Shown here in pieces: positions 828 through 1,606 of a stretch of 9,273 bases of DNA; positions within the stretch are counted from its first letter, which is position 1, and the number at the start of each line of letters is the position of its first letter. The stretch lies in IMG/VR virus record IMGVR_UViG_2690316318_000024; one strand, 5' to 3'. Both the position numbers and the translations under genes were made by a program. The notes beneath the pieces were generated by a model. The model saw only the letters and a list, made by a program, of their open reading frames with translations, did not search any database and was not told where the DNA came from. The stretch comes from a virus. Its lineage: Duplodnaviria; Heunggongvirae; Uroviricota; Caudoviricetes.

Positions 828-1606
828 CCCCTAAATCCTGCCGGGATCTGGCTGTAGTCCACGTTGTCGTAACTGGCTTTGAAGTACGGGTCTTCACGTT
901 TTTCTGTGTGCGTGCTGACGGACGGCGATAAGCGCAGGGAAAGCTCATCCCATTTTTCCCGCAACTTCGACGGGCTGAGCACGTTACGGCACCAGAACGG
1001 ATCGCGGCTGACGCGGCTGTACATCTCGCAGATTTGTTTGTGAGTACGACCATCCTGCACACACATCAGGCGAATTTCGTTTGCCCAGGCTGTCCAGTTA
1101 GGTTCTTTGGGACGAACCACCTCGCCGTCACATTCGGCGGCCTGCTCGTACAGGGCGATGATTTTTTTCCAAAGCCACTGTGCGCAGGTCAAATCATCCT
1201 GCGTCCCCCACTGGCGCTTTTTAGGACTGAATACAACCGCATCAGGATGGCGAGTTAAAAAATCCTGTTCATCCGTCTGCGTGTCCGGTTGCGAAGCGTC
1301 CGGACGAGAAGGTTTTTTATCTGACGGATCATGTTTTGATTTTACTGACGGATCCCCGCCAGATTCTGACGGGTGAAAACCCGCTTTTTTGCCAGATTTC
1401 GACGCATCAAATTTTGACGGGTCAGATTTTGATGCGTCAGATTTTGACGGGTCAGAATCTGACAGTTGAGAAAATGCCGCTGCCTGAAGCTTCGCAACGT
1501 TAAGCTGATAAACATTCGACGCATTGCGGTTACCCTGGCGACGCGCCTTACGCGTTAACCAGCCTTCTGCTTCCAGCCGTGCGATAGCCGTCCTGACGGT
1601 ACTCAT
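824..1606 (-). CDS. Replication initiator-like protein, ORF as callable downstream of the in-frame TAG (260 aa): remainder of HTH domain, Ser/Asp-rich pentapeptide-repeat linker, C-terminal domain
   Basis: ORF track 824..1606. N-terminus MSTVRTAIARLEAEGWLTR is the second half of a replication-initiator-type HTH. The linker (SDPSK/SDASK/FDASK repeats) is encoded by 15-bp DNA iterons. Stop TGA overlaps the downstream start. Confidence 0.6.
   Translation of the reverse strand: MSTVRTAIARLEAEGWLTRKARRQGNRNASNVYQLNVAKLQAAAFSQLSDSDPSKSDASKSDPSKFDASKSGKKAGFHPSESGGDPSVKSKHDPSDKKPSRPDASQPDTQTDEQDFLTRHPDAVVFSPKKRQWGTQDDLTCAQWLWKKIIALYEQAAECDGEVVRPKEPNWTAWANEIRLMCVQDGRTHKQICEMYSRVSRDPFWCRNVLSPSKLREKWDELSLRLSPSVSTHTEKREDPYFKASYDNVDYSQIPAGFRG
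1313..1470. repeat. Iteron-like direct repeats (15-bp period, consensus about ATTTTGAYGSGTCAG with internal TGAC..GTCA dyad) inside the replication-initiator gene; candidate origin of replication
   Basis: Seen directly: 1396-1410 atttcgacgcatcaa, 1411-1425 attttgacgggtcag, 1426-1440 attttgatgcgtcag, 1441-1455 attttgacgggtcag, 1456-1470 aatctgacagttgag, plus degenerate copies at 1313-1377 (ttttttatctgacggatc, gattttactgacggatc, attctgacgggtgaa). Lambda carries its origin iterons inside the O gene in the same way. Confidence 0.6.

What the first reader, a model, noticed from the sequence alone, without database searches (positions are those of the whole stretch)
1313..1470. Candidate replication origin embedded in the initiator gene: 15-bp iterons that also encode a pentapeptide-repeat linker
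Five tight 15-bp direct repeats (1396-1470) plus degenerate upstream copies lie inside the initiator reading frame, each with an internal TGAC..GTCA dyad. In frame they encode the SDPSK/SDASK/FDASK linker. This mirrors lambda, where the origin iterons lie within the O gene, and suggests the initiator binds its own coding sequence.
Basis: partly seen in the sequence, partly recalled or inferred. Interest (0 to 1): 0.5.

Follow-up and report, generated by a model that had tools for sequence, protein, structure and literature searches.

The report
Likely prophage replication origin inside initiator gene
A run of 15-base repeats inside a prophage replication-initiator gene is conserved as DNA rather than as protein, so it is very probably the phage's lambda-style replication origin: a new example of a textbook arrangement, not a new kind of system.

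Summary
The repeats are real. Four in-frame 15-bp units (1397-1456, minus strand) encode SDPSK/SDASK/SDPSK/FDASK in the linker of an O-like initiator gene (824-1765, minus strand).

Across 74 diverged Enterobacterales homologues (336 units), the constraint acts on DNA, not on protein:
- Lys is always AAA (236/0 AAG), and the two Ser positions use only TCA/TCG and almost only TCT/TCC.
- Radical residue changes (S→F, K→E, K→N) are common.
- The unit matrix is mirror-symmetric (r = 0.85), built from inverted half-sites R-TCA-R-A.

A neighbouring 45-bp core (1334-1378) is nearly invariant even at synonymous sites (1.64 bits against 0.61 in the N-terminal domain).

The repeats and core always accompany the winged-helix N-terminal domain, while the C-terminal domain is swapped among at least four types. 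The window's C-terminal domain is homologous to that of lambda O (E = 6e-26), and the layout matches lambda's, where the annotated iterons occupy the same position.

Origin function and initiator binding are inferred, not shown. The AT-rich tract is weak, there is no P-like helicase loader, and this copy of the gene carries a premature TAG.

Verdict: a new member of a known kind, of moderate-to-low interest.

The parts
824..1765 (-). O-like replication initiator gene (313 codons), interrupted here by an in-frame TAG at codon 49
   Evidence: Translation. phrog_391 'replication initiation O-like' E = 1.4e-135, full length. Pfam HTH_36 at aa 23-70. 99.7% identical to the Shigella phage SfII 'O protein family protein'.
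1481..1765 (-). Coding region for the N-terminal winged-helix DNA-binding domain (aa 1-95), the presumed iteron reader
   Evidence: Pfam HTH_36, GntR, MarR and DnaD_N-type hits. Weak MarR-family PDB hits. Conserved across 80 genome loci. Synonymous sites are close to saturated: mean third-position information 0.61 bits.
1619..1621 (-). Premature stop codon (TAG in place of CAG, Gln49) inside the winged-helix domain
   Evidence: All 17 fetched loci with the same 24-nt upstream context have CAG.
1397..1456 (-). Four tandem 15-bp iteron units (consensus TCTGAC-NCN-TCAAAA) encoding SDPSK, SDASK, SDPSK, FDASK
   Evidence: Family-wide codon bias and mirror symmetry.
1457..1471 (-). Degenerate leading unit (TCTCAACTGTCAGAT, encoding SQLSD). 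It supplies the first GTCAGATTCTGAC junction dyad.
   Evidence: Read directly.
1382..1396 (-). Degenerate trailing unit (TCTGGCAAAAAAGCG, encoding SGKKA)
   Evidence: Read directly.
1334..1378 (-). Conserved 45-bp core TTTCACCCGTCAGAATCTGGCGGGGATCCGTCAGTAAAATCAAAA (encoding FHPSESGGDPSVKSK). It contains one full dyad unit, the perfect palindrome CAGAATCTG and a GATC.
   Evidence: Nearly invariant in 73 diverged genes, including third codon positions: 1.64 bits against 0.61 in the N-terminal domain, Mann-Whitney p = 3.7e-6.
1310..1345 (-). A-rich stretch on the coding strand (about 69% A+T by hand count) with a second conserved GATC. Candidate unwinding region, but weak.
   Evidence: Sequence. 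GATC at 1327 and 1351. 60-nt windows reach only 45-47% G+C.
935..1270 (-). C-terminal domain homologous to the C-terminal (P-binding) domain of lambda O
   Evidence: tblastn aa 166-277, 39% identity to lambda and Stx-phage O. BLASTP against lambda O E = 6e-26, collinear.

Best explanation
The stretch 1310-1471 is most likely the replication origin of a lambdoid prophage (SfII / e14 / KpLE1 type), written into the linker-coding part of its own initiator gene.

Proposed mechanism:
1. Dimers of the initiator's N-terminal winged-helix domain bind an array of inverted R-TCA-R-A half-sites. The array comprises four 15-bp units plus a highly conserved 45-bp core.
2. They build an O-some-like nucleoprotein complex.
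3. The adjacent A-rich, GATC-containing DNA is opened, helped by transcription running through the gene.
4. The lambda-O-like C-terminal domain brings in the host helicase.

Because the DNA sites are what is under selection, the encoded peptide (SDxSK)n is a tolerant, flexible linker, and its residue variation simply mirrors the permitted degeneracy of the half-site.

Shown here: the repeats exist, selection acts at the DNA level, the unit has dyad symmetry, the motif is confined to this spot, it is co-inherited with the N-terminal domain, and the layout is collinear with lambda's.

Inferred: binding by the initiator, DNA unwinding at this site, and helicase recruitment.
For: **Initiator identity.** phrog_391 E = 1e-135. 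The C-terminal domain is 39% identical to lambda O, and BLASTP against lambda O gives E = 6e-26.

**DNA-level selection** (336 units in 74 diverged genes):
- Ser4 is TCA 305 / TCG 29, with no other Ser codon. In control regions of the same genes TCA makes up 11-21% of Ser codons.
- Ser1 is TCT 229 / TCC 24 / TCA 2, with no AGY.
- Lys is AAA 236 / AAG 0, against 36-43% AAG in the controls.
- Meanwhile residue 3 is free, and S→F, K→E and K→N are frequent.

**Core.** Third-position information is 1.64 bits in the core against 0.61 in the N-terminal domain, p = 3.7e-6.

**Symmetry.** The unit matrix is mirror-symmetric (r = 0.85). Over all 15 positions, only one of 15 registers gives r > 0.11 (0.79). 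The centre base is A or T, never G or C.

**Localisation.** The motif CA[GA]A[AT]T[CT]TG occurs 317 times within +250..+520 of the gene and 16 times elsewhere in 77 loci of about 5 kb.

**Co-inheritance.** The same array follows the N-terminal domain whichever C-terminal domain is attached: lambda-O-like 15, Phg_2220_C 59, phiP27-type 2, other 2.

**Comparison with lambda.** Its annotated iterons occupy codons 117-145, its AT-rich tract follows at 146-160, and the homologous C-terminal domain starts about 35 codons later. This is the same order and spacing as here. Published work places the lambdoid origin in the middle of O and shows that extra iterons add residues to O (PMC7466680).

**Sole replication gene.** In intact phages (SfII; a 44-kb circular Klebsiella phage record) this gene is the only recognisable replication gene.

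**Copy number.** It varies from 2 to 9 units with a mode of 4.
Against: - There is no experiment on binding or origin activity for this family, and none was found in the searchable literature.
- The A+T-rich region is short and weak: about 69% A+T over 36 bp, with 60-nt windows still at 45-47% G+C.
- No P-, DnaC- or helicase-type gene lies nearby. A PerC-like gene follows the initiator.
- No DnaA box occurs in the window.
- The N-terminal domain is not detectably homologous to lambda O's (hhalign probability 0.1).
- Codon counts across homologues are not phylogenetically independent.
- In this window the initiator is truncated by TAG.
- The plasmid collection yielded no minimal replicon built on this module.
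Confidence: 0.7

Rival explanations
1. The repeats are real DNA sites bound by a protein, either the initiator or another factor, but they serve regulation rather than initiation. Possible roles are autorepression, titration or handcuffing of the initiator, or a transcriptional roadblock. The true origin would then lie elsewhere in the phage.
For: DNA-level selection and dyad symmetry show that the DNA is read by something, not that initiation starts here. The AT-rich element is weak. There are no DnaA boxes. Plasmid iterons are known to have control functions as well as origin functions (general knowledge).
Against: The position and order match the lambda origin exactly. The motif is absent from promoter and intergenic regions of 77 loci. 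No other repeat cluster was found in the window. In lambda the same sites serve as the origin (PMC7466680).
Confidence: 0.12
2. The conservation reflects an RNA-level function in the initiator mRNA or in an antisense transcript, such as structure-controlled translation or stability, rather than a DNA site.
For: The region is strongly self-complementary: the single-strand fold has z = -4.1, and inverted repeats reach 35 nt. Rfam gives sub-threshold hairpin-type hits. A terminator-like hairpin lies on the antisense strand at 1370-1383.
Against: No Rfam family reaches its gathering threshold. The centre position tolerates A or T and never G, which is the signature of a duplex dyad rather than a hairpin. 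Individual dyads have arms that abut too closely (0-2 nt loops) to fold on their own. The antisense hairpin is not kept in relatives.
Confidence: 0.05
3. The near-identity of the linker DNA across genera is maintained by frequent recombination. On this view it is a mosaic joint where N- and C-terminal modules are exchanged, not a functional cis element.
For: At least four unrelated C-terminal domains are joined to the same N-terminal domain exactly at this stretch. Conserved boundary sequences at module joints are known in lambdoid phages (general knowledge).
Against: Exchange cannot explain the position-specific codon rules repeated in every unit, the mirror symmetry, or the A/T-only centre. 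The flanking N-terminal domain is saturated at synonymous sites, so any homogenising tracts would have to be shorter than about 50 bp. The two ideas are also compatible: an origin can double as the joint, as in lambda-type O hybrids.
Confidence: 0.05
4. The array is a slippage-generated low-complexity protein linker with no nucleic-acid function, and the dyads are incidental.
For: Copy number varies from 2 to 9. The composition is Ser/Asp/Lys-rich, typical of flexible linkers.
Against: Synonymous codons that protein-level selection would allow are absent (0 AAG in 236 Lys codons; 0 AGY in about 590 Ser codons), while radical residue changes are common. Third-position conservation is far above that of the folded N-terminal domain.
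Confidence: 0.03

Closest known systems
Bacteriophage lambda ori-lambda inside gene O, and the six-iteron origins of Stx phages 933W and P27
   Same: The iterons have dyad symmetry and lie in the middle of the initiator gene, between the DNA-binding N-terminal domain and the C-terminal domain. An A-rich tract follows on the coding strand. The C-terminal domain is homologous (E = 6e-26). Iteron number varies, and each added iteron adds residues to the protein (PMC7466680).
   Different: The N-terminal domain is Pfam HTH_36, not Phage_rep_O, and shows no detectable homology. The units are contiguous 15-bp repeats with half-site R-TCA-R-A, not four 18-19-bp sites spaced 20-24 bp apart. The AT-rich tract is weaker. 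There is no P gene. A 45-bp non-repeat core is the most conserved part.
Other phage origins located inside their initiator genes (P22 gene 18, phi80 gene 15, Bacillus phage SPP1 gene 38/oriL, lactococcal phage rep genes); recalled from general knowledge, not tested here
   Same: The general principle is shared: the initiator binds repeats inside its own coding sequence, and origin specificity travels with the N-terminal part of the protein.
   Different: The repeat sequences and initiator folds differ. I did not examine those loci, apart from noting that phi80 gene 15 shares the C-terminal domain (H61).
Iteron-controlled theta plasmids (RepA, RepE and pi winged-helix initiators)
   Same: A winged-helix initiator is paired with tandem directly repeated sites, and copy number of the repeats is variable.
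   Different: Plasmid iterons are usually 17-22 bp, lie outside the rep gene, and are bound by monomers using two winged-helix domains. Here there is a single winged-helix domain and dyad-symmetric 15-bp units inside the gene. No plasmid in PLSDB uses this module as its replicon.

Membership tests
Lambda-type origin embedded in the initiator (O) gene | Several directly repeated, dyad-symmetric sites inside the initiator ORF, between the N- and C-terminal domains | tested here: met
   Four units at 1397-1456 plus the core at 1334-1378. Mirror symmetry r = 0.85. Same position as the annotated lambda iterons.
Lambda-type origin embedded in the initiator (O) gene | A+T-rich unwinding tract immediately downstream of the iterons | tested here: inconclusive
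   A 36-bp A-rich stretch (about 69% A+T) lies in the right place and on the right strand, but it is interrupted by GATCCGTCAG. 60-nt windows fall only to 45-47% G+C, against about 52% nearby.
Lambda-type origin embedded in the initiator (O) gene | The sites are maintained as DNA, i.e. selection goes beyond the encoded protein | tested here: met
   Codon and synonymous-site analysis in 74-78 diverged homologues.
Lambda-type origin embedded in the initiator (O) gene | The initiator's N-terminal domain binds the repeats | not testable with these tools
   Only indirect evidence: the repeats and core always accompany the N-terminal domain whichever C-terminal domain is attached.
Lambda-type origin embedded in the initiator (O) gene | The fragment supports autonomous replication when initiator is supplied | not testable with these tools
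   No minimal replicon was found in PLSDB. The hits are prophages or excised elements.
Lambda O protein family | C-terminal domain homologous to the lambda O C-terminal domain | tested here: met
   39% identity over aa 166-277. BLASTP E = 6e-26.
Lambda O protein family | N-terminal domain of Pfam family Phage_rep_O (PF04492) | tested here: not met
   The window protein hits HTH_36 (PF13730), whereas lambda O hits PF04492. hhalign probability is 0.1.
Lambda O/P replication module | A P-type (or DnaC-, DnaB- or helicase-type) partner gene directly downstream | tested here: not met
   The downstream genes are a PerC-like regulator and a Dam methylase. No loader or helicase appears in the 19-kb neighbourhood of L001 or in SfII. 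phiP27, by contrast, has DnaC and a helicase.
PHROG 391 'replication initiation O-like' | Full-length match to the profile | tested here: met
   E = 1.4e-135, residues 1-313 matching profile positions 1-298 of 298.

The most novel reading that the evidence does not exclude
This would be a previously undescribed and very widespread family of origins in Enterobacterales prophages (SfII, SfIV, e14, KpLE1 and many others), with three distinctive properties:
1. A single winged-helix initiator works 'solo': it reads a 15-bp alternating half-site lattice and loads the host helicase without any phage-encoded loader.
2. Firing may be gated by Dam methylation of the two invariant GATC sites in the core, given that a phage Dam methylase gene sits next to the initiator in most relatives.
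3. The permitted degeneracy of the DNA half-site directly dictates which amino-acid substitutions appear in the protein linker, making it an unusually clean natural case of DNA-over-protein dual coding.
Probability: 0.3. Interest if true: 0.5.

Novelty: new member of a known kind. Interest (0 to 1): 0.35.

Why it matters
If confirmed, this would define the origin and the iteron code for a replication module carried by thousands of E. coli, Shigella, Klebsiella and other enterobacterial prophages. These include the serotype-converting Shigella phages and the remnants in the E. coli K-12 cryptic prophages.

It would also provide a compact initiator-only system for asking how an O-type C-terminal domain recruits the host helicase without a P protein.

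Finally, the locus is a clear teaching example of a coding sequence whose evolution is governed by an overlapping DNA-binding code. That has a practical consequence: recoding or codon-optimising such genes would destroy the origin.

It does not change the established picture of lambdoid replication.

Tried and rejected
- **Remote homology of the N-terminal domain to lambda O's N-terminal domain.** hhalign with a shallow 5-sequence profile gave probability 0.1. I treat the domains as different families.
- **PDB sequence search.** Only weak MarR-type winged-helix hits.
- **Rfam.** At E-value threshold on 1100-1800, and at gathering threshold on the whole window, only sub-threshold miRNA-like hairpin hits appeared. 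I rejected a known RNA family.
- **DnaA boxes (TTWTNCACA).** None in the window.
- **GATC density.** Not enriched overall (33 observed against 34 expected). Only the two conserved sites in the core are notable.
- **Promoter and terminator scan.** Nothing convincing within the element, apart from a non-conserved antisense hairpin.
- **Plasmid collection, searched for a minimal replicon built on this module.** The hits were prophages in large replicons, an excised e14 circle and a whole circular phage genome. None is informative for autonomy.
- **Literature.** Searches on yfdO, e14, SfII/SfIV/SfV and iterons with O-type initiators found no description of these repeats. The SfV genome paper is not held. 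The Weigel and Seitz review of phage replication modules could not be read, so an earlier prediction there cannot be excluded.
- **Structure prediction.** Not run. The intact protein is not encoded in this window because of the TAG codon. Building an alignment would have needed the expensive protein search, and the result would not bear on the main question.

Full report
**Context.** The window is the early region of a lambdoid prophage of the E. coli/Shigella e14 / KpLE1 (CPS-53) / SfII type.
- On the plus strand it carries a LexA-type repressor (3074-3760), yfdQ and yfdR homologues, an excisionase-like gene and an integrase.
- Leftwards, on the minus strand, it carries a Cro/YdaS-like gene, a CII-like gene, a gene of unknown function (phrog_1170), a small DUF4222 gene, the gene of interest (824-1765), a PerC-like gene (yfdN) and the start of a Dam methylase.
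- About half of complete E. coli genomes hold a close copy of the 700-1900 stretch.
- In K-12-type strains, the CPS-53 gene yfdO is an N-terminally truncated copy that still holds the repeats.

**The gene.** When repaired at one codon, 824-1765 encodes a 313-residue protein.
- It matches PHROG 391 'replication initiation O-like' end to end (E = 1.4e-135).
- It has a Pfam HTH_36 winged-helix domain at residues 23-70.
- It is 99.7% identical to the 'O protein family protein' of Shigella phage SfII.
- Its C-terminal part (residues 166-277) is 39% identical to the C-terminal domain of lambda O. BLASTP against lambda O gives E = 6e-26 over a collinear 220-residue alignment.
- The N-terminal domains are not detectably related. 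Lambda O is Pfam Phage_rep_O, and hhalign gives probability 0.1.
- In this window, codon 49 is TAG (1619-1621). All 17 fetched relatives with the same upstream context have CAG. This copy is therefore a pseudogene or carries a sequencing error.

**The observation.** TRF finds a period-15 array at 1393-1456 (4.3 copies), which also reads as period 30.
- In frame there are four units, encoding SDPSK, SDASK, SDPSK and FDASK (1397-1456), flanked by two degenerate units. Three units match TCTGACNNNTCAAAA exactly at 15-bp spacing.
- An exact TGACNNGTCA is present in two of the units.

**Is the constraint on DNA or on protein?** I collected 80 loci from one-genome-per-species Enterobacterales genomes using the N-terminal domain as bait, and 80 more from IMG/VR. 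Nearly all carry the same array directly after the N-terminal domain.

In 336 units from 74 diverged genes, codon use is far from that of the rest of the same genes:

| Position | In the repeat units | In control regions of the same genes |
|---|---|---|
| Second Ser (residue 4) | TCA 305, TCG 29, no other Ser codon | TCA is 11-21% of Ser codons |
| First Ser (residue 1) | TCT 229, TCC 24, TCA 2, no AGY | TCT is 8.5-9.5% of Ser codons |
| Lys (residue 5) | AAA 236, AAG 0 | AAG is 36-43% of Lys codons |
| Asp (residue 2) | GAC 81% | about 43-52% |

- At the same time the middle residue is almost free (A, P, T, G, R, V and others).
- Radical replacements are common: S→F, S→P, K→E, K→N.
- Synonymous changes are forbidden while non-synonymous changes are tolerated. 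This is the opposite of protein-level selection.

Just downstream, a 45-bp core is nearly invariant from Escherichia to Yersinia, Rahnella, Providencia and Rosenbergiella. Its sequence is TTT(G/C)ACCCGTCAGAATCTGGnGGGGATCCGTCAGTAAAwTCAA, at window 1334-1378.
- At columns where the amino acid is conserved, third-codon-position information averages 1.64 bits in the core against 0.61 bits in the N-terminal domain (Mann-Whitney p = 3.7e-6). Examples are Val GTA 72/72 and Asp GAT 73/73.
- In the N-terminal domain, four-fold degenerate sites are essentially randomised.
- These counts are not phylogenetically independent, but the saturation of the flanking domain shows that common descent alone cannot explain them.

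**Anatomy of the site.** The position-frequency matrix of the unit is mirror-symmetric.
- Pairs (i, 15-i) correlate at r = 0.85. Over all 15 positions, only one of the 15 possible registers exceeds r = 0.11 (0.79).
- The half-site is R-TCA-R-A.
- The two commonest residue replacements correspond to the same A/G degeneracy seen from either strand: S→F is TCT→TTT, and K→E is AAA→GAA.
- The centre base is A (87%) or T (13%) and never G or C. This explains why Asn (AAT) is tolerated and the synonymous AAG is not.
- A 15-bp period with mirror symmetry has two dyad centres. The other is at the junction (TCARA-W-TYTGA, half-sites 6 bp apart).
- Information content is concentrated on the junction 11-mer, and distant relatives keep isolated CCAGAATCTGG palindromes. 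The 9-bp spacing fits usual helix-turn-helix dimer geometry better. I cannot decide between the two registers.
- The motif CA[GA]A[AT]T[CT]TG occurs 317 times within +250..+520 of the gene and 16 times in the remaining ~370 kb of 77 loci, about 350-fold enrichment. It is therefore not an operator scattered through the early region.

**Co-inheritance.** The repeats and core always follow the winged-helix N-terminal domain, whereas the C-terminal domain is exchanged:
- lambda-O-like in 15 genes;
- Pfam Phg_2220_C in 59;
- a phiP27-type in 2, followed there by DnaC and a helicase;
- another type in 2.

Lambda shares the C-terminal domain class with the window but has a different N-terminal domain, and it has different iterons at the same place. 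This matches the classical rule, recalled from general knowledge, that origin specificity goes with the N-terminal part of O.

**Comparison with lambda.** In the annotated lambda record, the four iterons occupy O codons 117-145, the AT-rich tract occupies codons 146-160, and the homologous C-terminal domain begins about 35 codons after the last iteron. Here the units occupy codons 104-123, the core 130-144, and an A-rich stretch 141-152. The C-terminal domain starts at about codon 166. Order, polarity (A-rich on the coding strand) and spacing are the same. Published work places the origin of lambdoid phages in the middle of O. It also shows that Stx phages have six iterons, which add 13 residues to O, and that iterons can be mutated synonymously to kill replication (PMC7466680).

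**Weak points.**
- The A+T-rich tract is short and modest.
- There is no DnaA box.
- There is no P, DnaC or helicase gene in the window, in the 19-kb neighbourhood of a close relative, or in phage SfII. How the helicase is recruited is therefore unknown.
- In intact phages (SfII, and a 44-kb circular Klebsiella phage record) this gene is nevertheless the only recognisable replication gene.
- The region is strongly self-complementary (z = -4.1 as single-stranded DNA). That is expected from alternating dyads and does not by itself indicate an RNA element. Rfam has nothing above threshold.
- No experiment and no published description of these repeats was found. The SfIV genome paper discusses the replication module without mentioning an origin.

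**Copy number.** Among 145 distinct genes the array has 2-9 units with a mode of 4. Among 83 copies with an E. coli-type N-terminal domain, 76 have four units, two have three, three have five and two have six. The closest complete-genome match (L001) has six units, +30 bp.

**Verdict.**
- That this is a cis-acting DNA element I hold at about 0.95.
- That it is specifically the origin bound by the initiator's N-terminal domain I hold at about 0.7.
- It is a new member of a well-known kind (an origin inside the initiator gene). It has a distinct iteron code and an initiator-only module, and this particular copy is probably inactive because of the stop codon.
- Interest is moderate to low.

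Noticed in passing
window 1619-1621 (minus strand): An in-frame TAG replaces Gln49 (CAG) inside the winged-helix domain of the initiator. All 17 fetched relatives with the same context have CAG. This prophage copy is therefore probably replication-defective, or the base is a sequencing error.
   Followed up: yes
window 1755-1934 (minus strand): A 59-residue DUF4222 gene overlaps the start of the initiator gene. It is annotated directly upstream of the initiator in E. coli, Klebsiella, Rahnella, Ewingella and Pantoea records. It is a conserved small partner of unknown role, and possibly relevant given the missing helicase loader.
   Followed up: no
window 1370-1383 plus the T-run to 1393 (plus strand): A terminator-like hairpin, CGGGTGAAAACCCG followed by CTTTTTTGCC, lies antisense to the initiator between the core and the repeats. 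The stem is not kept in relatives that have GAC instead of CAC.
   Followed up: partly
window 3743-4663 (minus strand): A 306-residue protein with a C-terminal BRCT domain (Pfam E = 1.4e-6) is encoded next to the repressor gene. This is an unusual domain for a prophage accessory gene.
   Followed up: no
window 6376-7200 and 7301-7864 (plus strand): Homologues of yfdQ and yfdR. A paper reports that YfdR binds DnaA and that overexpressing the yfdQ-yfdT cluster inhibits chromosomal initiation (PMC4776307). The prophage may therefore interfere with host replication.
   Followed up: no
L168 1625-2332 (E. coli K-12-type CPS-53/KpLE1); L169 (OR902851.1): K-12-type strains keep an N-terminally truncated copy of this initiator (yfdO) that still holds the repeat region. 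A 15-kb 'plasmid' in PLSDB is an excised e14 element with an icd fragment, not a plasmid.
   Followed up: partly
L083 and L085 (initiator genes, codons ~115-160): The most divergent relatives replace the 15-bp array with three 33-bp repeats (encoding EPPVFRATSGL) bracketed by perfect 17-bp palindromes CCTCCAGAATCTGGAGG. This is a different repeat architecture built around the same central dyad.
   Followed up: partly
L012, L039, L043, L076 (genome contigs records): Records titled Vagococcus, Chryseobacterium, Martelella and Pseudomonas lundensis carry enterobacterial-type copies of this gene with 66-89% identity in the N-terminal domain. These are probably contaminated or mislabelled assemblies.
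   Followed up: no
window 1327-1330 and 1351-1354: Two GATC sites lie in the context GATCCGTCAG and are invariant across genera (the first codon is GAT in 73 of 73 genes). A phage Dam methylase gene sits one or two genes downstream of the initiator in most relatives, though not in SfIV (PMC3851460).
   Followed up: partly
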